Assembly (NCBI GenBank): GCA_035601635.1
Contig: DATNNY010000654.1
Span: forward strand, 1 to 58,361
Reading direction: 5' to 3'
DNA from: Pyrinomonadaceae bacterium
GTDB lineage: Bacteria; Acidobacteriota; Blastocatellia; Pyrinomonadales; Pyrinomonadaceae
DNA: 58,361 nt
Under the pieces are notes generated by a model that was not told the origin of the DNA, ran no database searches, and worked only from the letters and a program-made list of their open reading frames with translations. The position numbers and the translations under genes are program-made. Shown here piece after piece: positions 21,808 to 35,523 of the stretch (position 1 is its first letter; each line of letters opens with the position of its first letter).

Positions 21808-24291
21808 TCAGTGCTTCAATCTCAGCGAATCGCGAATTCTTTCCACGTCTGTTTTCAAATACCGGCTTCGACCGTATCCGTCGACATTCGGCCCTGATAC
21901 TCTTTCCAGTACTCCTTTTTTCACTAATCTGTTAAAGACGCCCTTGGTTAGCTGAAGAATCTCCGCAGCAGCTTTTGCTCCGACACGATTCCTATGTGTT
22001 TCAACGAACGCGTCAAGGTCTTCCTCTACGATATAAAAACAGTGAAGGTGTTTTTCAGATTGTATAGCTGGCAGTGCTCCGCGCAGAATTGCCTTTCTAA
22101 GTGTGCTCACAACTATTCCGACGCGTTTCGCGGCAATGTAGATAGACAGAAGTGATGCGAACGGGAGTTTTCTACGTCTGCACTCGCCGACTAATTCGGG
22201 CTGTAGAAAATATCGATTTCTGGTGGACGGCCGACGGTACCGAATCGAAGATCTTAAGAACCCGTTTTGGACCATGCGGTGAGCTGAATCTTCGTCGATG
22301 CTAAGCGCGCTGCAAACTTCTTTGAGGTCAAGGCTGCAGGTGGGCACCGTCGAGTGGTCCGTGGCTCGATAGTTTGAAATAAGCTCCCGTAAATCAAGGT
22401 TTGCCAAGTCGACTTGGCTAAAAATATATTGAAGGCCTCCGTCAATTGTCCGTCCTGAGATGGGATGGATATTCTTGTCCCGGAGAACCGCAACAATGTA
22501 ACCCGTATCGGTATCCAGTTTTTTCGCAATGGTCCTTGTAAGCACAACATACTTCACGCTGAACGCACTAACATCCTCGCTATTTATGAAACGGCCGAGG
22601 GATTCAAAACCCGGAATTAGTTTGGCGTTCAGCAAACCCTTGTTGGCAAGAAAATATACTTCCATTAGATTCGTTTTGAGCAACTGAGCAGTTTCTTCAA
22701 GCGAATGCACTTTGCCCGTGAATCCCTGCATCTTACCGCGAGCAAAATCTGCGATCTCGACCGCTGAGAAAAGGATACTAGATAGCACGGGTTTTCTGGT
22801 TTTGCTGCTGATATGTACTTCACCGTCAAAGACAGCTTTGATTAGGGTTCCGCAGTGACCGCCGGCTCGTCTTACGGTCTGAAGAGCATTGCGAAGGGTC
22901 TTTGTTTGATCAGACTTCTGGGTTCGCGCAACCACCGATTCAGCCAGACGAGTTAAGAACAAATCGATACTTGCAGAGCTAAATCGCCACTCGTGATTTC
23001 CCTCGATTACTGGACCGCGTATCGGGGTTAACAACTTGCTTTCGACAAGTTCAATCAACCGCTTCGCATGAGTTCCCAATTTGTGAGCTGTTTGATTAAG
23101 GCACATTGAGTCTTTCAATTCGTCTCGTAGGTTAATAACACTCTCTGCTTCAATTAGTAGTAATCGGGACTCGCCGGTTTTCTTAGCTTCCGTAAGTTTT
23201 CCAGCCGCGATTAGTTTCTTGATACTTCGAGGTGTAACGTTAAGGATCTGTTTTGCCTCCACTACGGTTAGATACTTCCTTTGAGCGGTATTGCTCAGAC
23301 GGGACAATGTCGTCGGGTAACCGCCGCGCCACTGAGTCGCAATATATTCTTCGAAACCCTCTCGTAAGAAGTCATAACAAGGGTCGGCTAACTGAACGTA
23401 GAGAGCAGATTTGTACTGACCGAAGTCTCTTCTTAACCCTCGTCCATGTCTGCTATCCGGATTGTTTTCGCGTTTCCAATCGAGAAATGAGAAAAAGTTG
23501 TTGGGCCAATTTTGGAATACTTTGTAGGCTTTGGCGATAAGTGAGTGAATCTCTTTGTTGCGAAATGAGTTTGAAATCCGCTTGCCTCTAGTATCCATTA
23601 ATCCTTGGAACTGGCCGACAATGAAAAACAGAGCGGATAACAATTGACTAAGACTCAAGGTTGTAAGAGGACATTCGGCGTCGACCTTGCTTTTGGATGG
23701 ATCTGCTTTTATTAGGTTGCATAATTGGTAAATTCTTTGTGCTACGTGCAGTTCGTCATTTGTAACTTGCTGGCCTTTCCACGATCTCCAATCGAATTCA
23801 CAGACACAAGTGGCAATTGCAGTTCGACGCCAACCGATTCTTTGGTTGCATCGCGGACATCTATCAAGGAGTACACGTCTATGTAAGGGACATGCAGTGA
23901 CAGCAGCGAATTCCCAGATTTTTCGCGCGTAAAGGCGTTCTCTTAAACACTCAGGACAGATTTTAGATTCACAAACTCGAATAGTGTATCGAGGAACGGG
24001 GTTACCGAATAACGAGTAGTCGTGCAGTGTTCCTGCGCGGTTAACCGGCTCGTACCAAAGGTCCCTCAGTGCAGATTCAGAGACGCCAGTCAATATCTGG
24101 AGTTGTTGCAGGTTCCACACGCTAATGGACGACAGTGAGAAGTCCCATCTATTGGTCGGAATCTTTGCGAGATCCAGAATCCATGTGATGACATCGTACT
24201 GGTTGAGTTCGGTCAGTCTAAGCACGAAACCAGGAAGACTCTCATCGGCATAGGGAGTTGCTGAGAAAACCAGCCTTTGATTGTTTGTCAT
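21808..24291 (-). CDS. tniQ: TniQ/TnsD-like target-selection protein with multiple C-terminal HTH modules
   Basis: 827 aa. N-terminal TniQ signature is PYADESLPGFVLRLTELNQY plus a Cys cluster (CPECL...CPLH...CPRCNQ). At least six HTH_17/MerR-like segments follow, for example YLTVVEAKQILNVTPRSIKKLIAAGKL and GAKAAAEILQLTKGVFNRLVKKGVL. Confidence 0.85.
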   Translation of the reverse strand: MTNNQRLVFSATPYADESLPGFVLRLTELNQYDVITWILDLAKIPTNRWDFSLSSISVWNLQQLQILTGVSESALRDLWYEPVNRAGTLHDYSLFGNPVPRYTIRVCESKICPECLRERLYARKIWEFAAVTACPLHRRVLLDRCPRCNQRIGWRRTAIATCVCEFDWRSWKGQQVTNDELHVAQRIYQLCNLIKADPSKSKVDAECPLTTLSLSQLLSALFFIVGQFQGLMDTRGKRISNSFRNKEIHSLIAKAYKVFQNWPNNFFSFLDWKRENNPDSRHGRGLRRDFGQYKSALYVQLADPCYDFLREGFEEYIATQWRGGYPTTLSRLSNTAQRKYLTVVEAKQILNVTPRSIKKLIAAGKLTEAKKTGESRLLLIEAESVINLRDELKDSMCLNQTAHKLGTHAKRLIELVESKLLTPIRGPVIEGNHEWRFSSASIDLFLTRLAESVVARTQKSDQTKTLRNALQTVRRAGGHCGTLIKAVFDGEVHISSKTRKPVLSSILFSAVEIADFARGKMQGFTGKVHSLEETAQLLKTNLMEVYFLANKGLLNAKLIPGFESLGRFINSEDVSAFSVKYVVLTRTIAKKLDTDTGYIVAVLRDKNIHPISGRTIDGGLQYIFSQVDLANLDLRELISNYRATDHSTVPTCSLDLKEVCSALSIDEDSAHRMVQNGFLRSSIRYRRPSTRNRYFLQPELVGECRRRKLPFASLLSIYIAAKRVGIVVSTLRKAILRGALPAIQSEKHLHCFYIVEEDLDAFVETHRNRVGAKAAAEILQLTKGVFNRLVKKGVLERVSGPNVDGYGRSRYLKTDVERIRDSLRLKH

Positions 24292-24328
24292 TTATTCCGA
24301 CGGAATTGCGGCAACCTCCAATAATGAC

Positions 24329-25393
24329 TCAGCGCTGCGAAAGCACATCGGACATCGAACGCTTATTCCTCCGCGGCTTTATTCTTTTGTTTGTTGCATT
24401 CGTCGAAGGAGTTGCGCGTTTCGCAGGTGTTCTAGGCTTAGCGCAATTACTCATTTGGCTAAAGGGATTCGGACGTTTGACAAAATCCTGCGCTACCCTT
24501 TCTTCATAGGCTCGAGCAAGGAGTGAGTGATCGATTTGTTCGGCACCGGTCTGAATAGCCAGCTTTGCCGCCCACCGAAGGAGCTTCATTACATAGTTGA
24601 TAACGCCATCCGTTGCCGAATAGATCAAAAACGCAGTCTCCTTATCTGCAAGATGCGAATTCTCCAAAAGCGGCAACCTATCATCAATTTCTTTTAGTAG
24701 TTGTCTAAACTCGGGGTCTTGAGCTTCAGCCTCCCAAGCAAACGGTGCGATCTCTTCTCGAGAGGAGAAGCGACGTTTGAGTTGTTCGTTTCCCTTGTTC
24801 TCTAAGACGCTTTCACAGCCAGGCATTCCGACAAGAACGATTGGCCGACATGTTTCATTAATCAGGTTCTTCAGCCAATCTGAAATGGTTTTTAGTATGT
24901 TCTTTGTTTGCCTGTCGTCGAAGTGCTGAAACTCATCGAGGATGATCAGTTCGACTTCGCAATCTCTTATGTATTTTCTCAGTCGCAACGTAATCGAACT
25001 AACGGTGCCTTTATCCGCGGCGGGATCTCCCAATGCTTCGAGCATTGCAGAACCAAGGCCTTTGACTGTTGCCGGTGAAGGTACAGTCACCACAAGGACG
25101 GGAACGATTCGTTTCTCAGGCGTCTCACGAGCCGGAAAATTGCTGGCGTACCATTTAATGAGTGTCGTTTTTCCGGCTCCTTTAGTCCCCGTGATCAACA
25201 TGCATTCAGGTTCAGCTGAGATCTTTGAAAACTCGCGGCAAAACTCGATCTTCCCGTAGAGATTTTTCAACCTGGGGTATCTGACGAACACTTGCTCGAT
25301 CATGACAAGCCGTTCAGCTGTGCTGAGCTTACCAAAACGGTCAGTCCGGTCGTTTCTTCCCTCATTTTTGCGATGCTTGATTTTCCGTTTCAT
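24329..25393 (-). CDS. tnsC: TniB/TnsC-like AAA+ ATPase
   Basis: Walker A is ITGTKGAGKTT and Walker B is LIILDEFQH. The gene sits between tnsB and tniQ and overlaps the tnsB stop. Confidence 0.85.
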   Translation of the reverse strand: MKRKIKHRKNEGRNDRTDRFGKLSTAERLVMIEQVFVRYPRLKNLYGKIEFCREFSKISAEPECMLITGTKGAGKTTLIKWYASNFPARETPEKRIVPVLVVTVPSPATVKGLGSAMLEALGDPAADKGTVSSITLRLRKYIRDCEVELIILDEFQHFDDRQTKNILKTISDWLKNLINETCRPIVLVGMPGCESVLENKGNEQLKRRFSSREEIAPFAWEAEAQDPEFRQLLKEIDDRLPLLENSHLADKETAFLIYSATDGVINYVMKLLRWAAKLAIQTGAEQIDHSLLARAYEERVAQDFVKRPNPFSQMSNCAKPRTPAKRATPSTNATNKRIKPRRNKRSMSDVLSQR

Positions 25394-27456
25394 GATTTCC
25401 TCCCGGGCAAGTTGTAATCGGACTCGAATTCATCCAAATCCAAGTCCTCCTCTTTCACGAGATCCATTTCAACCGGACTCACCGCGTCTTTCGTAAGCGG
25501 GTCTAGATCGCTTTGCTTTCTAGTCCGTTGGTTGTGAGATCGAGATGTCTTGTGCTTGTTGACGTAAGGTTCGACGACATTGGAGCTTGAGGTTGCACCG
25601 TTAACATTAGAAGTCTGAGTTTCATCAATTGCAATTGTCTTTGATTTGGAGACCACATCGAAAGCGTCGACGCCAATTTCAGAGTCGGCTCGCGTACCAT
25701 TGGAGGATTGGGTGTCCTTTTCTTGGGGAGGTGTTACGCTTACTTCGACTCGACCGGTCGACTTACCACTGCCGCCCTGCCAAAGCGCAGCTTTGACGCT
25801 AGAGCTACTCTTGCTACGCACATTCAATTCACTGTTTACAATCTTCTGGATACGCTCCTTAGCTAGGCTGAGCTGCTCTCCATCTACATAGTCCTCAGCC
25901 GTAAGGCGGGCCTCTCTTTTGATGACCTTGTGCTGCCACAGGGTCAAACCGGACGTGTAGTCTTGGTCTACAGCAGGCACAGGCAGATAAGAATTCGTCT
26001 CGCTGTCGTAGGCATGAATCAGCGATATGTCCATTGGATCATATTTGATCTTCACCTGATCGCCTTTCTTGTGACGACTCTTCAATGGACTCAGACAGGG
26101 ATGGTTGTAATAGAGCCCCCAGATTTCGATTCCTGAACTGGAGATGGAACGGTGCTCGATGTGGCCCAGTAGTATGTTCAATTCTTCAGCCTTGTAAGGA
26201 AGGGCTGGAGGAAACTCCTTAGTACCTTCTTCCCACCTTCTGGCGGGGACGTCACCGATTCCCCGATGGATACTGCGGTGGTACACATCGATGATCGAAG
26301 TGTGCAAAAGCTCATCGAGAGTTTGCATCGAGACCAACGCGTTCTTCTTTGGATCGTAGTCCCACTTCTCTGCAATATTTGAAAAAGTGGTGCCCGGAAT
26401 CTGGTGCAATAGTCTCTTGTTGAGAGTCCCGAACATTCGTTCAACCGATGGCTTATAGTAGGGGTGCCTTATCGGCGCGTACTGCGTGATGATTCCCAGT
26501 TGCAGACACGCTTCATCAAAACTCCTGCTGTAGTACTGTTTTGCATTGTCGACTACCAGCACTTCGGGAAGGCCATAGGCATCCCAGGAGTGAACAATTC
26601 CTGGGTAACGTTCTTTCACATAAGTTTTGGGCTTGATGCTATGTAGCAGAGTCTGCATAACCGAGAGATAGCTCGGCCGCACAAAGCTCAGGTAGTAACC
26701 CAGGATCATTTTCGTGAAGGCGCAAATTGCGATCATCAGCCATGGCCGCCCAATTGGGAGATTCGTTTTTTCGTCGATAACAAACAGGTCAAGTTTCGTG
26801 TCATCCATTTCGACTCGCTCTAGAGGACGAGTTGGGCGGACACCTTGCTTATTAACTTTATGTCGAAGGTCGGCGATGCGCTTGCTGTATCGAGCTTTGT
26901 CCTTTTCGTAAGGATCTAGTTTGTTGATCACGCGGTAAAGAGTGTTTCGGTGAGGAATCGGTAGCTTGTCTCCCTTGTCTCTAAATCTATTCTCTTCTCT
27001 AATCCGGGCTTCGATTAGGTCGTAGGTGGACTGCACCGTCGGACGCGTGCGTGACAAGTAATGCTCATTCACAACATCGTCGATAATTTTCTCGACCGCC
27101 TTGCATGTTTCGAGATCATCGCTGATACGTCTGCCATCGTTGTCGCTGACTTTGCCTCTAGCCTTAAACGCAGGCGCCAAAGCCCGAATATCATCGCCAG
27201 CCGCCGTGTAGGTTCTGTGCCAGCGAGAAACTGTTATGCAGGTTGGTGGGTTGAGGTCTTTGATGTCCTTGCTGACCTTATCAATAACCGGCTTCAAGTT
27301 CTCTGCGTTCTTGCCAAAGCTCGTTAGCGCTGATTTGCAAATGCCTTCGACGTACGCGAGGCGCCGCAGCGCTTCGATTTTTCTAGGATCGATGTCTTCG
27401 AGCGCTTCGAAATCATTGATGCTCGACCATTGTCGCCGCGCCTGGACATTTTCAAC
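25390..27456 (-). pseudogene. tnsB: tnsB (Mu/DDE transposase), 3' segment downstream of the IS insertion
   Basis: The ORF-track start (TTG 27297) is an artefact. The frame stays open upstream and encodes VENVQARRQWSSINDFEALEDIDPRKIEALRRLAYVEGI... with no start codon. It joins in frame to 30808-31010 once the IS is removed. A DDE/rve core is present (DDTKLDLFVID...). Confidence 0.85.
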
Positions 27457-27666
27457 CGGAAGTATGTACTTTACGCAAAGGGAAGGTCTGACGGTTTCAT
27501 GAGCCGCCGGAGCGGGAATTTTCAGAATCTTACTTCGGCCAGCCCTCTGCGGGTTTCTTCTTCTCTAGCGACTTCTTAACTGCATCTTTCCAGTCGCCTT
27601 CAAGTTTCAGTATATCCGCTTTAGGCCCCGGCTTGGCTCGTTTCTTTTTAGCGAGTTTCTTTTTCT

Positions 27667-27909
27667 TCACAGCTTCATCTTATCGTCAATCAGCGCATCT
27701 ACAATCACTCCGGCCAGTCGCGCGTACTTGAGCAAGACTGGCAACGATGGTTGCCGCTTGCCACTTTCAAACTGAGAAATAATCGCTCGATCCGTCACGC
27801 CTAATTCCTTTGCAATCTCGCTCTGAGACAATCCAGCTCTGATTCTCACTCGCCTCAGCTTTCGCGCCAGCTTGCGCGGATAGTCTCGCCCCCGCTTGGT
27901 AGTTCCCAT
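27667..27909 (-). CDS. XRE-family HTH regulator
   Basis: 80 aa containing LSQSEIAKELGVTDRAIISQFESGKRQPSLPVLLKYARLAG. Paralogous to ORF 35695-36165. Confidence 0.8.
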   Translation of the reverse strand: MGTTKRGRDYPRKLARKLRRVRIRAGLSQSEIAKELGVTDRAIISQFESGKRQPSLPVLLKYARLAGVIVDALIDDKMKL

Positions 27910-28074
27910 CAGGACTGACCTCCTGATGGATTTCCCTTGCAGCTAGGAGCGTTCGCTACTAGACTATGCGCCGTGCTAGAGGATGCCCGGACGATTTGAA
28001 GCGTCCGAGCGAGAGGCATTAGCCGCTTTGTCCTCTTGCTCTAATTTTCAAAATAACGATCTCTTTTCAAACAG

Positions 28075-28240
28075 CATATGGGAGCACAGTGCAAGTAAGC
28101 AAGAGTGAGCTTGCCGAAACCATGCTCCCATGTAGAGAGCGGGGCGACGTTGGGGTGAGGACAACCGTCGCCAGCTCTCACTAAGCGGGGAAGTCACTTG
28201 TGAGCGTAGTGGGACGCTCGCCGACTTCCCCGCTCTAACA
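28075..28240. ncRNA. candidate structured RNA (three or four consecutive strong hairpins); strand and function unknown
   Basis: Stems read by eye: ATGGGAGCA/TGCTCCCAT; GAGAGC..GGCGACG/CGTCGCC..GCTCTC; AGCGGGGAAGTC/GACTTCCCCGCT enclosing GAGCG/CGCTC. The segment is locally GC-rich inside an AT-richer IS. No convincing ORF covers it. Confidence 0.3.
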
Positions 28241-28449
28241 TCATGCAAAACATCTACGCCGCGACTCCCAAAGGTCTTATCTATCACCTGCTGGCCGAAT
28301 ACCATCGCACCCTTTGCGGCCTGTACATCGTCGGCGATCTTCACTTGTTCGCCGGGATACCAAAGGATCGGATTCTCTGTAAGCATTGCGAGACGATAGC
28401 TTCGCAAAACAAGTCTACTTCCGTCTCCTGAATTGCTGTACCCTTAGAC

Positions 28450-29436
28450 CTATAAAACGACAGGCCCCTTATACCTTAGCCGTTTTCCTTCAGCTTCGCG
28501 GATCGCCAAAGCCATTCGCTCGCCATCGTTCAATTCCCGGTTGTTCCACATGAAATCGAACTGCCAGATGTAGCGATGTAAATGCTTCTTGCTTACGTTG
28601 TGATAGATACCAACGATGCCGCGCTTGACTAGCGCGAATGAGCTTTCAACCGTGTTCGTGTTGACATCACCACGAGCATATTCCTTCGCGCTATGGCACA
28701 CTGTTTCATGGCCCGCATATTCAAGGTCGATCCCGTTGTATGACGGATTCTCGTCGGTGAGGATGAATGCTCGCTTGTCTACTACTTCGCGGATTGCATC
28801 TTTCAAGGTGTCGCCCGTCACGTCCGCAACCACTCGCCGTCTGATTCTACCGTTGCGTTCGACAGCCGCGAAAACTGGCTGTTTGTTGGTTCCGCGTCCG
28901 CGCTTACTGATGCCCTTGTATCGCGGTTTTCCGCCCACATACGTTTCGTCACATTCAACAATACCCGTAAGCTTTGGCGTGGCATCGTCTGGGGCCATCG
29001 CAAATCTGATTCGATTCATGAGGAATAACGCCGTGCGATAGCTGCATTGGGTGTGACGTTTAATCTCAAGCGCACTGACACCTTTTTTCGAGGTTGAGGC
29101 TCGCCAGAACGCATAGCACCAATGACGAAGGGGAAGCCGTGACTCTTCAAACACAGTTCCAAGACGAACGGTGTATTGTTGTTTGCAATCGTGACAACGC
29201 CACAGAAAACGCTTGCTCCGTTCACCCGTCTTCCGGTCAACCATTTTATAGACATCGACGCTACCACAGTGAACGCAACACGGCTCGTCGCCCCAACGCT
29301 GAGCCTCAAAAAATTCCACGGCGGTTAGTTCATCAGCGCACGCGAGCGGCATCTGCTTAATAACAGCGGAACTAGATAGGCGATGCTTGTTCTTGTTCAT
29401 GTTGCTAATTTTACACTTAACGCAATTCACTGTCAA
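28450..29436 (-). CDS. IS1595-family (ISXO2-like) DDE transposase
   Basis: N-terminal zinc ribbon is CCVHCGS...WRCHDCKQQYTVRLGTVFEESRLPLRHW. An ISXO2-like core follows (IVECDETYVGGK, ILTDENPSYNG). Confidence 0.85.
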   Translation of the reverse strand: MTVNCVKCKISNMNKNKHRLSSSAVIKQMPLACADELTAVEFFEAQRWGDEPCCVHCGSVDVYKMVDRKTGERSKRFLWRCHDCKQQYTVRLGTVFEESRLPLRHWCYAFWRASTSKKGVSALEIKRHTQCSYRTALFLMNRIRFAMAPDDATPKLTGIVECDETYVGGKPRYKGISKRGRGTNKQPVFAAVERNGRIRRRVVADVTGDTLKDAIREVVDKRAFILTDENPSYNGIDLEYAGHETVCHSAKEYARGDVNTNTVESSFALVKRGIVGIYHNVSKKHLHRYIWQFDFMWNNRELNDGERMALAIREAEGKRLRYKGPVVL

Positions 29437-29659
29437 GAGGAAAGTTGCGGCTCGGATTTCGACTTCCCGAAATAGTCCCTTGACTCCATAGAAAGGACGG
29501 GTTAGAGTGCAGAACGAAAAAGGGAGCGAGCCGCTACAAGCTCACTCCCCGGTTCACGGCCTAACTGGAATAGGCCCCCTAATTGATACCTACCATCTAC
29601 CAACAGACAGGGACATTCTAGCATCATATAAAGGTCTTTGACAACACATAAAATGGTTG

Positions 29660-29746
29660 TGGGGACGACAGGAATTGCACCCGCACGAGCCTTTCGGCTC
29701 ACCGTATCGACAGTACGGCGCGTCTGCTAATTTTCGCCACGTCCCC
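29660..29746 (-). tRNA. type II (long variable arm) tRNA-like gene with apparent GUC anticodon and a non-canonical T-loop
   Basis: Hand-folded. Acceptor GGGGACG/CGTCCCC is perfect. Anticodon stem CCGTA/TACGG has loop CTGTCGA. The variable arm is GAGCC-GAAA-GGCTC. T-stem GCGGG/CCTGT has two G:U pairs. T-loop is TGCAATT rather than TTCRANY. No CCA is encoded. Confidence 0.4.
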
Positions 29747-29774
29747 ATATCCACGGTCGGGCTTGAAAATGTAA

Positions 29775-29848
29775 TGGGGCGAACTCTGGGGATCGAACCC
29801 AGACCTTCGTAGTACTGGTACGACATGCTACCGTTACACCAAGCCCGC
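29775..29848 (-). tRNA. 74-nt tRNA gene with an atypical anticodon loop CCAGUAC (C33; nominal anticodon AGU)
   Basis: Hand-folded. Acceptor GCGGGCT/AGTTCGC has G4:U and G5:U pairs. D-loop is AACGGTA. Anticodon stem is TCGTA/TACGA. T-arm CTGGG-TTCGATC-CCCAG is canonical. Discriminator is C and CCA is encoded. Confidence 0.6.
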
Positions 29849-29988
29849 CACACGGCGGCGGAGAGGTTTTCATTTTTGCGAGTGAGCCTCTTCGCCGTTC
29901 TGGTTTTCAAACACCTTCACTAAATCACAGACAAGACCTTGCTGCAAGCACTATTTCATCGGTGAAACAATTTTTCAGAATGGTTCCC

Positions 29989-30651
29989 TCAGTCGTCATC
30001 AAGACTTAGGGCTACCGGTTCGGCTTTCTTATCAGACACCTCTGGTTCGTCTTCCAAACTGAGTCCGGCTGGCGCTCTCTTGTGGCCGTTACTACTCACG
30101 GCAGGTTCATCTTCATCTACTGTCTCGACGATCATGAATGGGCTGCTGTTACCTTTTTTGAACGCCTCTGCGGTAGTCCATTCCAACAGCCCAAACTCGT
30201 TCGGGCCAGTCTTAACAAAAATCTGATCCTTCCGGGCATAGAGCCCTAACTGACCAGCGAGCGATGCGCGGGTTTTCTTGTTGATCTCTTTCCCGATTGC
30301 GGTCAGCAAAGTATCTACGTGAAGCGGCTTGCGAACATCGCGCAACGCATCGCGTGCCTTGCTCGCTTCACTACCTCGACGAAGCGCAATCTCCGCGCGG
30401 CCTTCGTCGCCTTCTTCATCCGGCAAACTTTTTAGTACGGCCTGAAGTTCCTGCATCGCAAACTCATTGGCTTCGATATCGCCAAAAATCTCGCTCGCCT
30501 GACCGTGCAAATTTGCTAACGTCATCTGAATCTTGTCGATACGCTTTTGGATCGCGGCGCGTGCGCTGATGGGCATAACTAAAACCTTCCTTTCGGGCTT
30601 TTGGCTTGGAAATCCCGGCAGGCCTAAGGGGGAACCAACTGAGACTGGCAA
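29989..30651 (-). CDS. HARE-HTH-like winged-helix protein
   Basis: LHVDTLLTAIGKEINKKTRASLAGQLGLYARKDQIFVKTGPNEFGLLEW resembles the HARE-HTH motif. The tail is acidic. The likely start is MPISARAAIQ near 30576. Confidence 0.55.
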   Translation of the reverse strand: MPVSVGSPLGLPGFPSQKPERKVLVMPISARAAIQKRIDKIQMTLANLHGQASEIFGDIEANEFAMQELQAVLKSLPDEEGDEGRAEIALRRGSEASKARDALRDVRKPLHVDTLLTAIGKEINKKTRASLAGQLGLYARKDQIFVKTGPNEFGLLEWTTAEAFKKGNSSPFMIVETVDEDEPAVSSNGHKRAPAGLSLEDEPEVSDKKAEPVALSLDDD

Positions 30652-30807
30652 ACTGAGAGAATTTTAACCTCCGATTTTGCTGAGGTCAAGAGAAATGTTA
30701 AAAAGTGAGAGTGCGTGATGTTGGCGAGAGGGTAGGGCAGCCGTAAAGTCTAGCTTTTGTTAAACGTTTGGCGTTTTAAGGTTAATTGCGTAAAGTACAT
30801 ACTTCCG

Positions 30808-31010
30808 TTTTCAACTTCTCCGTTTGCGCCTAACAGCTCGGCGATTCCCTCAAATAGCGCCTTCAGGATTTCTGCCTCCGGTTTGGAGCACAAAGTTTCG
30901 GTAGCCAGGTGTTTGAGTTGGAGTTCGCCATTGGCCAAGCGTTTTTCAATCGAATAGCGTTGGCCGGAAAGTTTGATTTGCAGCCCTTGTCGCAGCCTTT
31001 GGCCTTTCAT
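30808..31010 (-). pseudogene. tnsB: tnsB, 5' segment upstream of the IS insertion
   Basis: MKGQRLRQGLQIKLSGQRYSIEKRLANGELQLKHL...GANGEVEN. The rest of ORF 30750-31010 (GSMYFTQLTLKRQTFNKS) is read-through into the IS inverted repeat. Confidence 0.8.
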
Positions 31011-31288
31011 ACTTTTCCTCCCTGGTTGCTTTCTGGCTGTGACAGGTAATAACTAACAATCAGCTTGGTGAGGGCGCAGATTTTAAGCGTCAGCCACGGT
31101 CGGCCAACGGGCAGTCTTGTCCTTTCACCTACGACGAACAGATCTAGTTGTGTATCGTCTATCTCGAGGTTCTCCAGCGGGCGGTAGTTATTGTCTCCTT
31201 GGTCTGCGTCACGCTGACTAGTCGCCGAACAGCGCAGGCTTTTTTGCGAAACGGAAACGTGGTCGTCAGTGTTGTCAAAGCGATTCAT
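31007..31288 (-). pseudogene. isolated fragment of a TnsB-like catalytic core between tnsA and tnsB
   Basis: LENLEIDDTQLDLFVVGERTRLPVGRPWLTLKICALTKLIVSYYLS parallels LERVEMDDTKLDLFVIDEKTNLPIGRPWLMIAICAFTKMILGYYLS in the main tnsB. It is only 93 aa. Start and stop overlap both neighbours. Confidence 0.6.
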
Positions 31289-31932
31289 CCTTCACCTCCA
31301 TCGTTGTTTTCAGAGTTAGTTGGAAGCCATATCGGGCTCTTCATACTGAGAGGAATTAAGTAATCGGTAACGATAAAATGGTGGTACATCAGCGCCAGGA
31401 CCACCGGCCTTTCAGCGCCTCGTGATTCAAAAAGCTCGAGAAGTTCCCCTAGCGTTGCTGTTTGGCGATGTAAGAAAAATTCATGGCATAAGAGATGGTG
31501 TTGTGGATGAATTGACGTCCGCGAGTAGTATCTCAATCTCTTGATCGTAGTTAAGAACGGTTCGACTAAAATCTCGCGTTCGGTTTTGACGAGAAAGTCA
31601 TAACCCGCACGATCACATATCGGCGTGACGATCCGAAACAATTGCTCGAACCAGGGTGTAATCAGTCGTTCATACTTAACCTCAACAATCAGCGGACGCT
31701 GTTGTTTCCGATAGACCAGAAAATCGGCCGTAAACGATCGGCGTTTTCCATTCAACTCGTAAAAGACTCTTATTGACTGTGTAGAGTAGGAAATGACGTT
31801 TCGATCGTGCTCGCACCGTAGGGCAAGGCACAGTTCAGCGATCGATTCGGTCCAAATGTTTCGACCGTTCTTCTGGCTCGGAAGCTTGCAGACATTTATA
31901 CGGCGTCCGCCGTTGTGGATTTTTCTGAGCAT
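31285..31932 (-). CDS. tnsA: TnsA-like endonuclease
   Basis: ESIAELCLALRCEHDRNVISYSTQ...FTADFLVYRKQQRPLIVEVKYERL shows a restriction-endonuclease-like D...E-x-K core typical of the TnsA N-terminal domain. Confidence 0.8.
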   Translation of the reverse strand: MLRKIHNGGRRINVCKLPSQKNGRNIWTESIAELCLALRCEHDRNVISYSTQSIRVFYELNGKRRSFTADFLVYRKQQRPLIVEVKYERLITPWFEQLFRIVTPICDRAGYDFLVKTEREILVEPFLTTIKRLRYYSRTSIHPQHHLLCHEFFLHRQTATLGELLELFESRGAERPVVLALMYHHFIVTDYLIPLSMKSPIWLPTNSENNDGGEG

Positions 31933-31947: not shown

Positions 31948-33222
31948 TTATGGTTCTTGAGAATGCGAGCTGGGAGATGTTGCGCATTCGGAAGTGTTAT
32001 CGGCACGGCTATGACAGTGAGCGTTTATTCCTCGGGTGATTTTAAAGAGTGAGGAACGATCTAGCTTCAAACGTCTGGCAGCATGGCTCATATTTCCGTT
32101 ATAGCGACGCTTCACAGCCTCGATAGCTGCAGCTCGCACGCGTTGCGTAAAATCGTGAAAAGACTCACCCGCAAAAAGAGTGCGGCAGGAATCAGGCAGG
32201 TCGATCGTCTGCGAATCGAGATATTTGAACCGGGCCAATTCGGCGTGGACATTTGCAGCGGTGACGTTGGTACCGCCGGCGTAGCAAGCGAGCCGCGCTA
32301 TAACGTTTTGCAATTGCCGAATGTTGCCTGGCCAGTCATAAAGACAAAGTTCATTGAGAGCGGCTTCATCTAGTTGCACGGACTTAACTGAACTCAACTC
32401 AGATCGCTCTGCGGCAAACCTTCTGAAAACGAGTTCCGGAATATCCTGGCGACGTTGGCGCAATGGCGGAATGTCAAGTTGGAGTACTGCGAGGCGGTAA
32501 TAGAGATCGTCTCGAAAGCTGCCGACCGCGATCATTCGATGGAGGTTACGTGACGACGCAGCAACGAGCCGCACGTTGCAGTCAATGTCAGTGAGCCCCC
32601 CCAACCGTCGGATCTTTCGGCAATCAATCGCTTTAAGTAGTTTCGCTTGCAGTTCCGGTTTGAGTTCGCCAATCTCATCCAAAAACAGTGTGCCGTTGTG
32701 CGCAACTTCGAAGAGACCTTTCTTGCGCCCCGTGGCACCTGTAAAAGCTCCTCGCTCGAATCCAAAGAGTTCGCTTTCAAGAAGGTGTTCGGGCAGAGCG
32801 GCGCAATTGACGTCAACGAAACGCGCGGCAGAATGTTTGCTGCGCTCGTGAATGATCTGAGCCACAGTTGTTTTGCCTGTGCCGGATTCTCCCGTTAGCA
32901 GCACGGCGTGCTGTACTCGCGCCGCGTGAGATATTTGTTCGTCGAGACCGCGCATGCTCGGCGATTGACAGACCCATTGGGCGTTCCGCGAAGATTCGGA
33001 AACGGTGCGGCCTTCAGCCACTGCCGAAAAAGCTGCTCTGAGTGTGGTCGGTTTTTTTCCATCGACACGTACATCTCTCCTGAGAAGAGGTTTTTTGAGA
33101 ATGCGCAAGCTAACCATGGAGAATTCCCAAGACAGAATCTCCATTAGACATACTGAAAAAGCGTGAAAGTGTGACAGGGGTGAAGGCGGGGAACCGGGGA
33201 AATGCCCGGGATCTTCTAACAA
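31948..33222 (-). CDS. sigma-54-dependent transcriptional activator (bEBP) without a recognisable N-terminal sensor domain
   Basis: AAA+ Walker A is LTGESGTGKTT. The GAFTGA loop is FERGAFTGATG. WPGNIRQL is present, and the C-terminal Fis-type HTH is NMSHAARRLKLDRSSLFKI. The likely start is M at 33117, leaving only about 60 aa before the AAA+ core. Confidence 0.85.
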   Translation of the reverse strand: MLEDPGHFPGSPPSPLSHFHAFSVCLMEILSWEFSMVSLRILKKPLLRRDVRVDGKKPTTLRAAFSAVAEGRTVSESSRNAQWVCQSPSMRGLDEQISHAARVQHAVLLTGESGTGKTTVAQIIHERSKHSAARFVDVNCAALPEHLLESELFGFERGAFTGATGRKKGLFEVAHNGTLFLDEIGELKPELQAKLLKAIDCRKIRRLGGLTDIDCNVRLVAASSRNLHRMIAVGSFRDDLYYRLAVLQLDIPPLRQRRQDIPELVFRRFAAERSELSSVKSVQLDEAALNELCLYDWPGNIRQLQNVIARLACYAGGTNVTAANVHAELARFKYLDSQTIDLPDSCRTLFAGESFHDFTQRVRAAAIEAVKRRYNGNMSHAARRLKLDRSSLFKITRGINAHCHSRADNTSECATSPSSHSQEP

Positions 33223-33238
33223 ATAGTTAGCTTTAAAA

Positions 33239-33736
33239 TTAATCTAGCAGAGCACTTTCGTTCTGCCTTTCAAGTTCTGATTTGACTTGCGAGAGCCAGG
33301 TCAAGGCTAATTCCAATGCCTCACTTGGATCCGAGATCCTTGCTGAAACCCGCGCAATTTTATGAGAGTTTTCCGTCAAAAGCTTGACGGCTTCGACGTG
33401 AATCCGATAGGCAGCAAAAACTAGCGCGCTTGATCTCGGTGAGGTGGTCCATGGAAGACAATCGTTTGATTCCAAGCTTTGAAGGTCAAGTAATTTTATT
33501 TCCAAAGCATCTGCTAAGGCCATTGGTGCGACACCTAAACTTCTCCTGAATCGGCGAACAAAAGAAGAAAGAGTTGTTATTTCAACAGATCGAGTTACGG
33601 GCCGGTTACGAAGGAAGGAAAGTAAATCACTCGGAGTCTTAAATACGGGAGGCTCCACCTTGGGGATGTTTTCCTCTTCTTCCCTCTCACGACGAATCTG
33701 TTCCAACAGGTTGTTTATGTGATCTTCGTAGCTCAT
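33239..33736 (-). CDS. hypothetical protein between the sigma factor and the bEBP (possible sigma partner)
   Basis: 165-aa ORF with no TM helix and no motif recognised. It overlaps the upstream sigma ORF end by 50 nt. Confidence 0.45.
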   Translation of the reverse strand: MSYEDHINNLLEQIRREREEEENIPKVEPPVFKTPSDLLSFLRNRPVTRSVEITTLSSFVRRFRRSLGVAPMALADALEIKLLDLQSLESNDCLPWTTSPRSSALVFAAYRIHVEAVKLLTENSHKIARVSARISDPSEALELALTWLSQVKSELERQNESALLD

Positions 33737-34307
33737 CGTTTTCCAGCCTCAATATTTCTCGCTTCAGTTTGCGAAGTATGCGTGAGAGTCGCTGTCGGAT
33801 CGCAGTGTCGGTTGATCCTAACCTGCGCGCTATCTCGGGCGACTTTAGGCGTCGACGAAATCGAAGTCGGAGAACCTCGCAATCGATTTCCTTAAGTGAT
33901 CCGCTTTTTCTGAGCGATCTGATCGCCTGTTTCAGCCATTTATGCCTCTTCTGATTTCCGCCATTATTTTCTTCGTCGATTGTAGCTTCGATCGATGGTT
34001 CTAGAATGTCCTCGATGGATTCTGGCCAACGACGTCGTTCTTGCTCACGATTGCGTGCGAAGTTCTTTGCGACTGTTAGAAGCCATTTTGACAATTCTCC
34101 TTCGTCCGGATCGTACCCAGCGCATTTTGTTCTTTCTAAGATTAGCCACAAGTCCTGCCAGACATCTTCCTCTTCATGAAAGCCGGCCCAGCGAAGAAAT
34201 GGAACTACGTTTGCGATTCCTTCTTTCCACAGGAACTCAAACGCTTTAGGATTGCCCGCCTTAAGCTTCTTGATAAACTGTATACTGTCAATGATGGCCT
34301 CGAACAT
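33687..34307 (-). CDS. ECF-like sigma-70 family factor
   Basis: Region 2-like EEDVWQDLWLILE and WLLTVAKNFARNRE. Region 4 HTH is CEVLRLRFRRRLKSPEIARRLGSTDTAIRQRLSRILRKL. Confidence 0.7.
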   Translation of the reverse strand: MFEAIIDSIQFIKKLKAGNPKAFEFLWKEGIANVVPFLRWAGFHEEEDVWQDLWLILERTKCAGYDPDEGELSKWLLTVAKNFARNREQERRRWPESIEDILEPSIEATIDEENNGGNQKRHKWLKQAIRSLRKSGSLKEIDCEVLRLRFRRRLKSPEIARRLGSTDTAIRQRLSRILRKLKREILRLENDELRRSHKQPVGTDSS

Positions 34308-34674: not shown

Positions 34675-35523
34675 TTGGATCGGCCGCTGCCTCACACTAG
34701 CAGAGTCAGTGTGACGACCCCTGTGACGGGGTTGGGCGGTTCGAGCGAAAGGGAGAGTGCGATAGCTTTGGAGATGGCGAACACACGGAAGAGAAATCGC
34801 AGAAAGACGAAGACCGAAGTCCAACCGCACAAGGATGACTCCGAATCATTCGGCGAATTCGTCGGACGCACGCGCGAACGGTTACGAAATCCAGAGCTAT
34901 CGCAAACGAAGGCTGCCGAGAAGGCGGGAATTAGCCGCGAGACGTGGAATCGAATTGAACGAGGCAAACAACTACCAGCTCCCGCGAATATCCCTGCCAT
35001 CGCTGAAACCCTTAAAACCGACGTCAGGAGACTTTTCATCCGCGCGGGTTACGAGGTACCCAGTGACATCGAGATTGACAGACGGAAAAGGCTTGTACGG
35101 GATTTCCTCGTCTACTGGGACGAGGCAAGTTCAACCGCGGGATTTATGTTGGGCATACTCGCGATCTGGTTAAGAGACAAGCAAGAGGGCGAGGAGCGAA
35201 CCCGAATTTACTTGGAACCTGCCTTCCTGCAACTTCTCATTGCGATTCAAGAAAACCTCTCTAGGAATCAACAACTTCGTCTTGCTGCTGAACTCATCGA
35301 AAGAATCCCAGTTACTGAATTGAGAAAGGATCGAATTGACTTCAATAACATGCTTGAAGAGATCGATTGTGAGTTGGAATGGAATAAGCGCGCATCAGTC
35401 AGAGCCGCCGGTGGTCTCTATGAAATTCGATCACTGCCTGGCATGGGGCATTATCGCCGTTTGCTTACTGACGAAGAGCTAACTAACCTTTTGGTATTCG
35501 CCAAGAGCCAAACCAAGGAATAG
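34675..35523 (+). CDS. XRE-HTH domain protein with a long C-terminal extension
   Basis: ELSQTKAAEKAGISRETWNRIERGKQLP. The likely start is MANTRKRNRRK near 34773. Confidence 0.65.
   Translation: MDRPLPHTSRVSVTTPVTGLGGSSERESAIALEMANTRKRNRRKTKTEVQPHKDDSESFGEFVGRTRERLRNPELSQTKAAEKAGISRETWNRIERGKQLPAPANIPAIAETLKTDVRRLFIRAGYEVPSDIEIDRRKRLVRDFLVYWDEASSTAGFMLGILAIWLRDKQEGEERTRIYLEPAFLQLLIAIQENLSRNQQLRLAAELIERIPVTELRKDRIDFNNMLEEIDCELEWNKRASVRAAGGLYEIRSLPGMGHYRRLLTDEELTNLLVFAKSQTKE

What the first reader, a model, noticed from the sequence alone, without database searches (positions are those of the whole stretch)
27449..30815. tnsB is split by a 3.35-kb IS1595-family transporter IS with a textbook insertion signature
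TTTTCAAC + CGGAAGTATGTACTTTACGCAA (27449-27478) and TTGCGTAAAGTACATACTTCCG + TTTTCAAC (30786-30815) form perfect 22-bp inverted repeats flanked by an 8-bp direct repeat. Eight bp is the duplication size generally reported for the IS1595 family. Deleting 27457-30815 joins ...ELLGANGEVEN (from 31010) in frame to VQARRQWSSINDFEALEDIDPRKIEALRRL..., giving a tnsB of about 753 aa. This explains three oddities. The tnsB frame has no start codon upstream of 27297. ORF 30750-31010 ends in nonsense. The element has a DDE transposase of its own (28450-29436). The IS is large for its family and carries an XRE regulator, a structured segment, two tRNA-like genes and a HARE-HTH protein. The perfect repeats suggest a recent event that probably immobilised the Tn7-like element.
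Basis: seen in the sequence. Interest (0 to 1): 0.75.

Follow-up and report, generated by a model that had tools for sequence, protein, structure and literature searches.

The report
Cargo-carrying IS1595 element splits tnsB
A 3.35-kb jumping gene of the IS1595 family has landed inside the transposase gene of a larger Tn7-like transposon; the insertion is routine, but the element belongs to a large undescribed soil-bacterial group that carries odd tRNA genes whose anticodons do not match their charging signals.

Summary
Perfect 22-bp inverted repeats (27457-27478 and 30786-30807) are flanked by an 8-bp duplication, TTTTCAAC. Removing the 3,351-bp element and one duplicate restores a 753-aa TnsB. 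That protein aligns without a gap across the junction with 13 full-length homologs. An intact syntenic relative (L101) has the same octamer once and no IR-like sequence.

The element encodes an intact IS1595 transposase. The same IR bounds about 50 related elements of 2.0-5.6 kb in Acidobacteriota and Verrucomicrobiota genomes, 38 of them with their own perfect 8-bp AT-rich duplication. A 99.4%-identical copy sits at a different site in L094.

New here: this clade has a fixed core and two cargo slots. The core is the IRs, a leaderless transposase gene whose promoter contains IR-like boxes, and a conserved small Lys-rich protein.

In the window and about 15 relatives the cargo includes structurally conserved tRNAs with mismatched identity:
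- a G-1/C73 (His-type) tRNA with a Thr anticodon;
- a class-II, Leu-like tRNA with an Asp anticodon here, and Pro or ochre anticodons elsewhere.

These match the "irregular tRNA polycistrons" of Mukai et al. 2017, which that paper's text does not link to IS1595. Their function is unknown.

The parts
27449..27456 (.). Target-site duplication, copy 1 (TTTTCAAC)
   Evidence: Identical to 30808-30815. On the tnsB coding strand it reads GTTGAAAA, codons 66-68.
27457..27478 (.). Terminal inverted repeat at the end distal to the transposase start (IRR)
   Evidence: Perfect 22-bp reverse complement of 30786-30807. The same sequence, with 0-3 mismatches, bounds about 50 related elements.
27457..30807 (-). 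Whole IS1595-family transporter IS, 3,351 bp; the transposase reads on the minus strand
   Evidence: IRs plus 8-bp duplication; intact transposase; sister elements at other sites; a 99.4% copy at another site in L094.
27530..27670 (-). Conserved small Lys-rich accessory ORF (46 aa). Its C-terminal motif is LKxxGxWxxAVKKSLxKKKPxxGWPK. Its start overlaps the XRE stop codon (GTGA).
   Evidence: tblastn finds the C-terminal 28 aa next to the IRR in about 47 elements. Codon-position entropy of 0.75/0.46/1.43 shows it is coding.
27667..27909 (-). XRE-family HTH regulator (80 aa), slot-B cargo
   Evidence: Pfam HTH_3 2e-12 and HTH_31 4.5e-12. An ortholog sits in sister element L098.
27910..28242 (.). 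Structured divergent intergenic region between XRE and orf62. It holds at least 4 long hairpins, and one hairpin sequesters the XRE Shine-Dalgarno sequence and start codon.
   Evidence: MFE -149 kcal/mol, z = -6.9 on either strand. No Rfam family. Conserved in L098, in part nearly identical (A7). Two short-read assemblies break here.
28243..28431 (+). orf62, a small Cys-motif protein (YHRTLCGLY...DRILCxxCE), convergent with the transposase gene; slot-B cargo
   Evidence: 51% identity and 70% positives to the 62-aa ORF at the same position in L098. Indels in this stretch are multiples of 3. No family hit.
28450..29400 (-). IS1595-family DDE transposase, 316 aa from the ATG at 29400
   Evidence: Pfam DDE_Tnp_IS1595 1.6e-40 plus Zn_ribbon_IS1595 1.6e-08. 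NCBIfam NF033547 scores 187 bits against a cutoff of 75. The exact protein is on record from this ATG start.
29408..29436 (-). Transposase promoter TTGACA-17-TAAAAT containing an IR-like box (TTGCGTTAAGTGTA). The -10 hexamer ends 7 nt before the ATG, which suggests a leaderless mRNA.
   Evidence: Promoter scan scores 11 of 12. Conserved in five sisters (A9). The IR-like box is present in 48 of 60 elements and the 6-7 nt spacing in 41 of 60.
29513..29644 (-). Conserved promoter-like site (29615-29644, TTGTCA-18-TGcTAGAAT) followed by an intrinsic terminator (29521-29550 plus a T-run). This is either a candidate ~95-nt small RNA or the terminator of the tRNA operon.
   Evidence: Promoter and terminator scan. 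The promoter hexamers are conserved in five sisters. The terminator stem has 4 compensatory pairs.
29659..29746 (-). tRNA2: class-II (long variable arm) Leu-like body, A73, anticodon GUC (Asp), T-loop UGCAAUU, no encoded CCA
   Evidence: ARAGORN and Rfam, 42.4 bits. Family cloverleaf has 12 of 20 compensatory pairs. CM R1 scores 82 bits. Anticodon census.
29775..29848 (-). tRNA1: 74 nt with genomic G-1 and C73-CCA (the tRNA-His identity set), anticodon AGU (Thr), C at position 33
   Evidence: ARAGORN and Rfam, 49.3 bits. G-1 and C73 are shared by all six Thr-anticodon relatives. The sequence is identical in L096.
29989..30576 (-). Coiled-coil plus winged-helix (HARE-HTH-like) protein, 195 aa, slot-A cargo; promoter-like site at 30661-30689
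   Evidence: Pfam HARE-HTH E = 0.0033, below the cutoff. AF2 model: helix 5-50, winged helix 70-130 at pLDDT 83-88. Weak Foldseek hits to the RNAP delta subunit. Only 9 homologs were found. In all 5 distinct relatives with downstream sequence, plus the window, two tRNAs follow.
30786..30807 (.). Terminal inverted repeat at the end proximal to the transposase start (IRL)
   Evidence: L094 matches the window starting exactly at 30807.
30808..30815 (.). Target-site duplication, copy 2 (TTTTCAAC)
30808..31010 (-). tnsB 5' fragment (codons 1-67 plus 2 nt). As annotated, the ORF runs on into the IS to 30750.
25390..27456 (-). tnsB 3' fragment, from codon 68 onward plus the duplicated octamer
   Evidence: Pfam rve and Mu-transpos_C. 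PDB best hits are the TnsB proteins of PseCAST and Tn6677. Colinear with homologs.
21808..25393 (-). Downstream Tn7-like genes, both intact: tniB/tnsC-like AAA+ (24329-25393) and tniQ (21808-24291)
   Evidence: Pfam TniB 2.3e-28; TniQ 1.7e-16 plus HTH_17. Same gene order in L101.
31007..31932 (-). Upstream Tn7-like genes: tnsA-like (31285-31932) and a conserved 93-aa ORF (31007-31288) that resembles the TnsB DDE region
   Evidence: Pfam Tn7_TnsA-like_N 5e-07. NCBIfam TnsA_like 1.9e-13, below its cutoff. The 93-aa ORF is 65% identical over 54 aa to TnsB residues 269-322. It occupies the same position in L101.

Best explanation
**What it is.** A 3,351-bp IS1595-family transporter insertion sequence (27457-30807) has transposed into codon Asn68 of the tnsB gene of a Tn7-like element (tnsA-like, 93-aa ORF, tnsB, tniB/tnsC, tniQ).

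**Shown.** The element has perfect 22-bp terminal inverted repeats, an 8-bp target duplication in an AT-rich octamer, and an intact Zn-ribbon plus DDE transposase. In-silico excision restores a colinear tnsB. Many sister elements, and one near-identical copy, lie at other sites.

**Inferred mechanism.**
- The transposase binds the IRs and makes 8-bp staggered cuts at AT-rich targets.
- Its gene is transcribed as a leaderless mRNA from a consensus promoter. That promoter is built from an inverted pair of IR-like boxes, so the transposase probably represses itself.
- A conserved small Lys-rich protein encoded next to the far IR is a second core component of unknown role.

**Cargo.** The core leaves two cargo slots. 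In this copy, slot A holds a coiled-coil/winged-helix protein, two non-canonical tRNAs and a terminator. Slot B holds a small Cys-motif protein, a structured divergent control region and an XRE regulator.

**Consequence (inferred).** The insertion separates the first 67 codons of TnsB from the rest. TnsB is very likely inactivated, leaving the Tn7-like element non-autonomous. The split gene has not decayed further, so the event is young relative to the time neutral decay would take.
For: - **IRs and duplication.** They are exact and unique in the window.
- **Transposase.** Pfam DDE_Tnp_IS1595 1.6e-40 and Zn_ribbon_IS1595. NCBIfam NF033547 scores 187 bits against a cutoff of 75. It is full length relative to more than 100 homologs.
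- **Restored TnsB.** 753 aa; gap-free across the junction against 13 homologs of 737-772 aa. PDB best hits are PseCAST and Tn6677 TnsB.
- **Intact reference.** L101 is a syntenic intact relative with a single GTTGAAAA and no IR.
- **The IR is an IS terminus.** The same IR bounds 2.0-5.6 kb elements around transposases of 52-90% identity. Thirty-eight have a perfect 8-bp duplication at distinct sites, and the duplications are 81% A+T.
- **Second copy.** L094 is 99.4% identical, starts exactly at the IS terminus, and has an unrelated flank.
- **Core and slot architecture.**
Against: - No empty-site allele of this particular Tn7-like element was found in the metagenome collection.
- All three assemblies holding the locus carry the insertion. 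The insertion is therefore fixed where it was sampled, and 'recent' cannot be dated.
- Only one copy is present in the 58-kb window.
- Loss of TnsB function, transposase autoregulation, leaderless translation and the role of the small ORF all rest on sequence alone.
- One sister element (L098) lacks a matching direct repeat.
Confidence: 0.95

Rival explanations
1. The 22-bp repeats and the intervening DNA are a native or programmed part of tnsB, such as an intron-like or invertible segment, and not a foreign IS.
For: The locus is identical in three assemblies, and no empty-site allele was found.
Against: Thirteen homologs and the syntenic L101 lack any insert and any IR-like sequence at this position. 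The repeats bound transposase-containing units at dozens of unrelated sites, each with its own 8-bp duplication. No intron family was found in Rfam.
Confidence: 0.01
2. The two tRNA genes are ordinary host tRNA genes, or decaying pseudogenes, picked up by chance as passenger DNA. They have no role of their own.
For: Transporter ISs carry arbitrary passengers. Cargo in this clade is very variable, including ClpP-like, proteasome-like and Zn-ribbon proteins. The window's tRNA1 has C33 and tRNA2 has G55, both non-canonical.
Against: - The tRNA pair recurs in 15 of about 49 complete elements and in all 5 distinct relatives of the HARE-like gene with downstream sequence.
- The cloverleaf is kept by compensatory changes in 12 of 20 pairs.
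- The G55 variant co-varies with the D-loop (4 of 4 against 0 of 12).
- The bodies and anticodons are systematically mismatched: a class-II body with Asp, Pro, Gly, Ala or ochre anticodons, and G-1/C73 with Thr anticodons. Ordinary tRNA genes are not like this.
- The operon's terminator is conserved.
Confidence: 0.12
3. The irregular tRNAs are functional RNAs that are not used for decoding. They could be decoys or sponges for tRNA-binding enzymes (anticodon nucleases, synthetases, modification enzymes), or regulators. This is the second option raised by Mukai et al.
For: Mukai et al. found that G-1 tRNA1(GGU) is charged by E. coli HisRS but does not insert His at ACC. They also found that several allo-tRNA(UAU) variants were inactive or toxic (PMC5389517, section 16). 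C33 in the window's tRNA1 argues against normal ribosomal use. Anticodons turn over quickly between close sisters while the bodies are kept: GUC/AGU, UUA/GGU, UGU/GUC.
Against: No nuclease or other partner enzyme is encoded in the element. CCA ends, discriminator bases and the elbow tertiary pair are maintained as in chargeable tRNAs. The data here cannot separate this reading from true mistranslation.
Confidence: 0.35
4. The 3.35-kb unit is a non-autonomous cassette, or a composite of two events such as an IS plus later internal insertions, and not a single mobile unit.
For: Slot contents differ among sisters. L095 is a transposase-less remnant. Two short-read assemblies break inside slot B.
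Against: The transposase ORF is intact and the promoter is conserved. The sisters L096, L099, L083 and L098 share the same order of parts between the same IRs. L094 shows that the IRL plus slot A moved together. Cargo exchange within slots is compatible with a single mobile unit.
Confidence: 0.04

Closest known systems
IS1595 family transporter ISs (tIS; Siguier, Gagnevin & Chandler 2009, the 'ISNwi1+/ISPna2+' type groups as I recall them from ISfinder)
   Same: Zn-ribbon plus DDE_Tnp_IS1595 transposase, short terminal IRs, 8-bp duplication, and passenger genes inside the IRs (concept cited in PMC3129680).
   Different: - The transposase is at most 41.5% identical to annotated IS1595 transposases on plasmids.
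- The clade has a nearly invariant 22-bp IR across phyla.
- It has a second conserved small protein.
- It has an IR-like operator pair in a leaderless transposase promoter.
- It has two defined cargo slots.
- It carries tRNA cargo.
No ISfinder comparison was possible, so the subgroup is unassigned.
'Polycistrons of irregular tRNAs (tRNA0/1/2)' and G-1 tRNA1(GGU) of Acidobacteria (Mukai et al., NAR 2017, PMC5389517)
   Same: - Acidobacterial soil origin.
- Two adjacent odd tRNAs.
- One has G-1/C73 and a Thr (NGU) anticodon.
- The other has a long variable arm and a missense or nonsense anticodon.
- HTH (antitoxin-like) genes and a 'transposon-related protein' lie nearby.
   Different: That paper's text does not mention IS1595 or place these tRNAs inside an IS (term search; figures not seen). 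Here they are shown to be cargo between the IRs of a mobile IS1595 clade, next to a coiled-coil/winged-helix gene, with anticodon sets that change between sister elements.
allo-tRNAs (8/4 or 9/3 acceptor/T-stem; Mukai 2017)
   Same: A long variable arm, non-cognate anticodons, and occurrence in Acidobacteria.
   Different: The window's tRNA2 and its family have the canonical 7-bp acceptor and 5-bp T stem, and a tRNA-Leu-like 3-bp D stem. They are not allo-tRNAs.
Tn7-like transposons (TnsA/TnsB/TnsC/TniQ); the closest solved TnsB proteins are from the type I-F3 CRISPR-associated transposons PseCAST and Tn6677
   Same: This is the interrupted host element. It has a TnsA-like endonuclease, a DDE TnsB with a Mu-transposase C-terminal domain, a TniB-type AAA+ protein and TniQ.
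   Different: - No cas genes were seen in the ORFs checked.
- TniQ is 827 aa with HTH_17.
- A conserved extra 93-aa ORF resembling the TnsB DDE region lies between tnsA and tnsB.
- Sigma-factor-like and sigma-54-activator genes lie upstream.
The transposon ends were not mapped.

Membership tests
IS1595 family insertion sequence | Transposase with an ISXO2-like DDE domain and an N-terminal zinc ribbon | tested here: met
   Pfam PF12762 1.6e-40 (139 bits, cutoff 27) and PF12760 1.6e-08. NCBIfam NF033547 scores 187 bits against a cutoff of 75.
IS1595 family insertion sequence | Short terminal inverted repeats at both ends | tested here: met
   Perfect 22-bp IRs, unique in the window, and conserved around relatives.
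IS1595 family insertion sequence | 8-bp direct target duplication | tested here: met
   TTTTCAAC on both sides. Thirty-eight related elements have perfect 8-bp duplications.
IS1595 family insertion sequence | Mobility: the same or sister elements at independent sites, and an uninterrupted target in relatives | tested here: met
   L094 is a 99.4% copy with a different flank. L083, L096 and L099 are sisters at other sites. L101 has the intact target.
IS1595 family insertion sequence | Assignment to a named ISfinder subgroup or a registered IS name | not testable with these tools
   ISfinder is not available. The nearest annotated plasmid transposases are at most 41.5% identical and are labelled only 'IS1595 family transposase'.
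Transporter IS (tIS) | Passenger genes unrelated to transposition located between the IRs | tested here: met
   An XRE regulator, orf62, a HARE-like protein and two tRNAs lie inside the IRs. Cargo varies among sisters.
Tn7-like transposon (host element) | A tnsA-like endonuclease, a tnsB DDE transposase, a tnsC/tniB AAA+ protein and tniQ in one operon-like array | tested here: met
   The same array is present in L101.
Tn7-like transposon (host element) | Terminal arrays of TnsB-binding repeats and a 5-bp target duplication | not tested
   The ends of the Tn7-like element were not searched for.
Mukai 'G-1 tRNA1' irregular tRNA group | Genome-encoded G-1 pairing with C73, a Thr-type NGU anticodon, and tandem placement with a second irregular tRNA in Acidobacteria | tested here: met
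   All six Thr-anticodon tRNAs (AGU, GGU, UGU) have G at -1 and C73-CCA, and sit beside a second tRNA. The description is in PMC5389517, section 16. No direct sequence comparison with their set was possible because no supplement is held.
allo-tRNA | A 12-bp acceptor branch in 8/4 or 9/3 configuration | tested here: not met
   The consensus fold gives a 7-bp acceptor and a 5-bp T stem.
HARE-HTH domain protein | A significant match to PF05066, or a winged-helix fold that matches RNAP delta or ASXL-type HARE-HTH | tested here: inconclusive
   Pfam E = 0.0033 and 0.0063, below the gathering score. Two homologs have precomputed PF05066 hits. AF2 gives a winged helix at pLDDT 83-88. Foldseek finds no hit at E <= 1e-3; the RNAP delta subunit appears among the weak top hits.

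The most novel reading that the evidence does not exclude
This IS1595 clade is the vehicle that spreads a trans-acting 'identity-mismatched tRNA' module among soil bacteria. The module comprises a His-identity tRNA reading Thr codons, a Leu-like class-II tRNA reading Asp, Pro or ochre codons, and a coiled-coil/winged-helix protein. The tRNAs would be charged and used, or conditionally unleashed, to mistranslate or suppress. That would make the module a toxin-like addiction, abortive-defence or recoding device. Swapping the anticodon between sister elements would retarget it.
Probability: 0.25. Interest if true: 0.85.

Novelty: new variant of a known kind. Interest (0 to 1): 0.5.

Why it matters
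The insertion itself is routine: one mobile element disabling another. Its practical value is for annotation. It explains a start-less tnsB, a nonsense-tailed ORF and assembly breaks, and it marks this Tn7-like copy as probably non-autonomous.

The wider value lies in the element's family. It is a large, apparently undescribed clade of cargo-carrying IS1595 elements in Acidobacteriota and Verrucomicrobiota. The clade has an almost invariant 22-bp end, a self-operator promoter and two exchangeable cargo slots.

This gives a concrete genetic home for the irregular, identity-mismatched tRNAs that Mukai et al. found in soil metagenomes and metatranscriptomes and could only loosely link to toxin-antitoxin or transposon genes.

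Two experiments become possible:
- Clone a 3-kb unit and ask whether natural mistranslating or suppressor tRNAs are expressed, charged and used.
- Ask what those tRNAs do for a transposon.

Tried and rejected
- **PDB sequence search with the restored TnsB.** The alignments start at residue 88, so they say nothing about the junction. I replaced this with natural homologs.
- **Exact-protein lookup with the TTG-start transposase.** It found nothing. The ATG start worked.
- **Empty-site 24-mer in metagenome contigs.** No hit.
- **Metagenome scan with the HARE-like alignment.** Only one locus came back, but it proved useful: L094.
- **Rfam at a permissive threshold over the IS.** Nothing beyond the two tRNAs, so the structured segment has no known family.
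- **blastn of the IS against sister elements.** The cargo is not conserved at the DNA level outside the closest sisters.
- **hhalign of the HARE-like family against the small proteins upstream of UGG-type tRNAs.** Probability at most 5%, so the shared coiled-coil plus winged-helix look is architectural only.
- **Foldseek of the HARE-like model against the PDB.** No significant match.
- **Leu, Ser or Tyr identity of tRNA2.** BLAST against E. coli gave only weak partial hits, all to tRNA-Leu genes (E = 3). Harvesting genuine class-II tRNAs from about 1 Mb of fetched DNA gave too few references. 'Leu-like' therefore rests on my knowledge of tRNA-Leu D-arm and A73 features.
- **PADLOC.** No defence-system hit for the cargo, apart from generic HTH matches to the XRE protein.
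- **Readthrough idea.** I considered that the ochre tRNA in L083 might read through the transposase stop codon into the in-frame downstream ORF. I did not verify it, and it cannot apply to the window, where the stop is TAG and tRNA2 is GUC.
- **Literature searches.** Searches for IS1595 plus tRNA, or for mobile mistranslating tRNAs, found nothing beyond Mukai 2017 and its review.

Full report
**1. The observation**

The sequence is as described. TTTTCAAC lies at 27449-27456 and again at 30808-30815. CGGAAGTATGTACTTTACGCAA at 27457-27478 is the exact reverse complement of 30786-30807. Allowing three mismatches, the 22-mer occurs nowhere else in the window, and no match is expected by chance. 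The bounded element is 3,351 bp.

Deleting it together with one octamer joins the 5' piece of tnsB (ATG at 31010) in frame to the 3' piece. The result is a 753-aa ORF ending at 25390. The break lies inside codon Asn68.

**2. Is it an insertion into tnsB?**

The solved TnsB structures (PseCAST, Tn6677) align only from residue 88 onward. They confirm the protein family but do not cover the junction.

A database search found 27 or more full-length homologs of 737-772 aa at 60-68% identity. Thirteen of them, spanning 44-70% identity, align with the restored protein without any gap across the junction. P0005 reads GANGEVEN-LQARRQWSSINDFEAL, almost identical to the restored sequence (A1).

The contig encoding P0005 (L101) carries the whole module in the same order: sigma-70-r4-like gene, 165-aa ORF, sigma-54-activator AAA+ gene, tnsA-like gene, 93-aa ORF, tnsB, tniB, tniQ. 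Its tnsB is uninterrupted. At the homologous place its DNA reads GAAGTTGAAAAT once, and it holds no IR-like sequence.

**3. Is it an IS1595 element?**

- The 316-aa protein (ATG at 29400) has the ISXO2-like DDE domain (1.6e-40) and the IS1595 zinc ribbon.
- It passes NCBI's curated IS1595 model (187 bits, cutoff 75).
- Annotated plasmid relatives are at most 41.5% identical and are all named 'IS1595 family transposase'.
- More than 7,000 database proteins match at E <= 1e-20, so the family is large.

I fetched 80 genomic loci encoding relatives, mostly from Acidobacteriota, with some from Verrucomicrobiota and others. I then fetched further loci for the closest homologs.

In about 50 of these loci the same 22-bp sequence, with 0-3 mismatches, lies in inverted orientation on both sides of the transposase gene and delimits units of 2.0-5.6 kb. 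This holds even though the transposases are only 52-90% identical. Thirty-eight units have a perfect 8-bp duplication, different in each, and 81% A+T overall.

L094, a contig from another metagenome, matches the window at 99.4% from exactly the IS terminus (30807) inward. Its 3.7-kb flank is unrelated, so it is a second copy of essentially this IS at another site.

**4. Population status**

The exact transposase and XRE proteins are on record on contigs from JGI sample 3300012582 and run SRR6266403. These contigs are 99.98-100% identical to the window and show the same insertion.

No empty-site allele was found. Both short-read assemblies break inside 27917-28094 with overlapping ends. That pattern suggests a graph branch at a segment shared with other elements.

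The insertion is therefore fixed where it was sampled. Its youth is supported by the perfect duplication and by the absence of further damage to the split tnsB. The perfect IRs are not evidence of youth, because they are conserved across the whole clade.

**5. Anatomy of the clade**

DNA comparison shows that only four parts are shared: the IRs, about 50 bp plus the transposase gene, and the last 200 bp or so.

The last 200 bp encode a small Lys-rich protein. Its 28 C-terminal residues are found in 47 elements. Variation is concentrated at third codon positions (entropy 0.75/0.46/1.43), and W9, P22 and G25 are invariant, so it is a real second gene.

The transposase promoter is a near-consensus TTGACA-17-TAAAAT (11 of 12). 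Its -10 hexamer ends 6-7 nt before the ATG in 41 of 60 elements. In 48 of 60 it contains a box resembling the inner part of the IR, usually as an inverted pair (TACTTGACGCAA...TTGCGTTAAGTA). I infer a leaderless, self-repressed transposase gene.

Between this core lie two cargo slots:
- Slot A lies between the IRL and the transposase gene.
- Slot B lies between the transposase gene and the small ORF.

Slot contents differ widely. They include a 270-335-aa protein with a faint proteasome-like hit in 16 elements, ClpP-like proteases, and Zn-ribbon proteins.

**6. Cargo of this copy**

*Slot B* holds three things:
- an XRE regulator;
- a convergent 62-aa Cys-motif ORF that is conserved in sister L098 (51% identity);
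- the 333-bp region between their divergent starts.

That region folds far better than shuffled sequence (z = -6.9) and has no Rfam family. It is conserved in L098, in part more strongly than the flanking genes. One hairpin covers the XRE ribosome-binding site and start codon. I read it as a divergent control region. Its precise role is open.

*Slot A* holds a 195-aa protein, then two tRNA genes, a conserved promoter-like site and a terminator whose stem shows compensatory changes. The protein has a long N-terminal helix, a confident winged-helix domain and an acidic tail. Its HARE-HTH match is only marginal.

**7. The tRNAs**

Both pass Rfam's tRNA threshold.

*tRNA1* (29848-29775) has a genomic G at -1 and C73-CCA, which is the bacterial tRNA-His identity set. 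Its anticodon is AGU (Thr), and position 33 is C. All six Thr-anticodon relatives (AGU, GGU, UGU) share G-1 and C73.

*tRNA2* (29746-29659) has a long variable arm, a 3-bp D stem with the UGGCGAAA...GACGC arm typical of tRNA-Leu, and A73. Its anticodon is GUC (Asp). The Leu assignment rests on my own knowledge; the only tool support is weak E. coli hits, all to tRNA-Leu genes.

Eight such long tRNAs give a cloverleaf with compensatory changes in 12 of 20 pairs. A covariance model built from them finds the same kind of tRNA beside the transposase in many elements. The anticodons are:
- UGG (Pro) in 14;
- UUA (ochre) in sister L083;
- GUC in the window and in L096, the latter found by ARAGORN;
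- class-II bodies with CCC, UGC or GUC anticodons elsewhere nearby.

Four tRNAs with the unusual T-loop UGCAA (G55) all have AGC instead of GGC in the D-loop, and none of the other twelve does. This is as expected if the 18:55 elbow contact is preserved.

In all 5 distinct relatives of the HARE-like gene with downstream sequence, and in the window, two tRNAs follow. The anticodon pairs differ:
- AGU + GUC (window, L096);
- GGU + UUA (L083);
- GUC + UGU (L098, L099);
- UGU + CCC (L095, a transposase-less remnant).

Fifteen of about 49 complete elements carry such tRNAs.

**8. Relation to what is known**

Transporter ISs were defined within the IS1595 family (Siguier et al. 2009, cited in PMC3129680). 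The kind of element is therefore known.

Mukai et al. 2017 (PMC5389517) reported acidobacterial 'polycistrons of irregular tRNAs'. These included G-1 tRNA1(GGU) species that E. coli HisRS charges but that did not decode ACC. They were found near toxin-antitoxin genes and a 'transposon-related protein'.

The window's pair fits that description. It does not fit allo-tRNAs, because its stems are 7/5 and not 8/4 or 9/3.

The text of that paper does not mention IS1595, and my literature searches found nothing that places these tRNAs inside an IS. I could not see their figures or supplements.

**9. What the tRNAs do is not settled**

They are clearly maintained as folded tRNAs with charging signals that disagree with their anticodons. 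Three readings remain:
- they mistranslate or suppress (novel case, about 0.25);
- they act without decoding, as decoys or regulators (about 0.35);
- they are passengers without a role (about 0.12).

The element encodes no nuclease, synthetase or known defence protein.

**10. Verdict**

The finding is correct and its interpretation is supported. As an event, an IS hitting a transposon gene is ordinary. The element itself is a new variant of a known kind, and its tRNA cargo deserves follow-up.

Noticed in passing
window 31007-31288 (-); L101 4723-5004: A 93-aa ORF lies between tnsA and tnsB. It is 65% identical over 54 aa to the DDE region of TnsB (residues 269-322) and overlaps both neighbouring genes by 4 nt. 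It occupies the same position in the intact homolog L101, so it is a conserved part of this Tn7-like family and not debris.
   Followed up: partly
window 31948-34307 (-) and 34675-35523 (+); L101 422-4079: Upstream of tnsA, on the same strand, lie a sigma-54-activator-type AAA+ protein, a 165-aa ORF and a sigma-70 region-4 protein. A divergent XRE gene lies beyond them. The same synteny is present in L101. This is an unusual regulatory set for a Tn7-like element.
   Followed up: partly
window 984-1029 (+): Acido-Lenti-1 RNA (RF01687, 44.2 bits against a gathering score of 37). This is consistent with an acidobacterial origin for the window.
   Followed up: no
window 39122-42238 (-): A 1,038-aa fusion of a caspase-like Peptidase_C14 domain with a DEAD/Helicase_C helicase. 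It is followed by three unannotated ORFs and could be a defence-type gene.
   Followed up: no
window 20277-21548 (-): A 423-aa protein just downstream of tniQ has a C-terminal match to the 'predicted pPIWI-associating nuclease' domain (E = 6e-05, just below the cutoff). It is probably Tn7-like cargo.
   Followed up: no
window 27917-28094; L001, L002, L092, L093: Two independent short-read assemblies both break inside the structured slot-B region, and the contig ends overlap by 95-120 bp. This suggests that the segment is shared with other elements in the same communities.
   Followed up: partly
L095 2084-3253: A transposase-less remnant (HARE-like gene, tRNA-UGU, tRNA-CCC and an IRR) lies next to phage-tail-like genes (Peptidase_S74). 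The module may also travel on phages.
   Followed up: no
L098 4783-4790 and 8088-8095: Sister element L098 has good IRs but non-matching flanks (TTCTTTTA and AAAAGAAA), and an IS110-family gene lies next to it. A rearrangement between copies is possible.
   Followed up: no
L015 6998-7099, L053 7017-7106, L066 6998-7104, L068 6942-7045: In four elements the class-II UGG tRNA lies just downstream of the transposase gene on the opposite strand, in slot B, and not upstream.
   Followed up: no
L083 1634-2932: In the sister that carries the ochre-reading tRNA, a 114-aa ORF starts two codons after the transposase stop codon and in the same frame. Whether the stop is UAA, which would allow readthrough, was not checked.
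   Followed up: no
L005 and L043: Two elements in different MAGs have the same duplication, ATTGCTAA. This could be an orthologous insertion or a preferred target.
   Followed up: no
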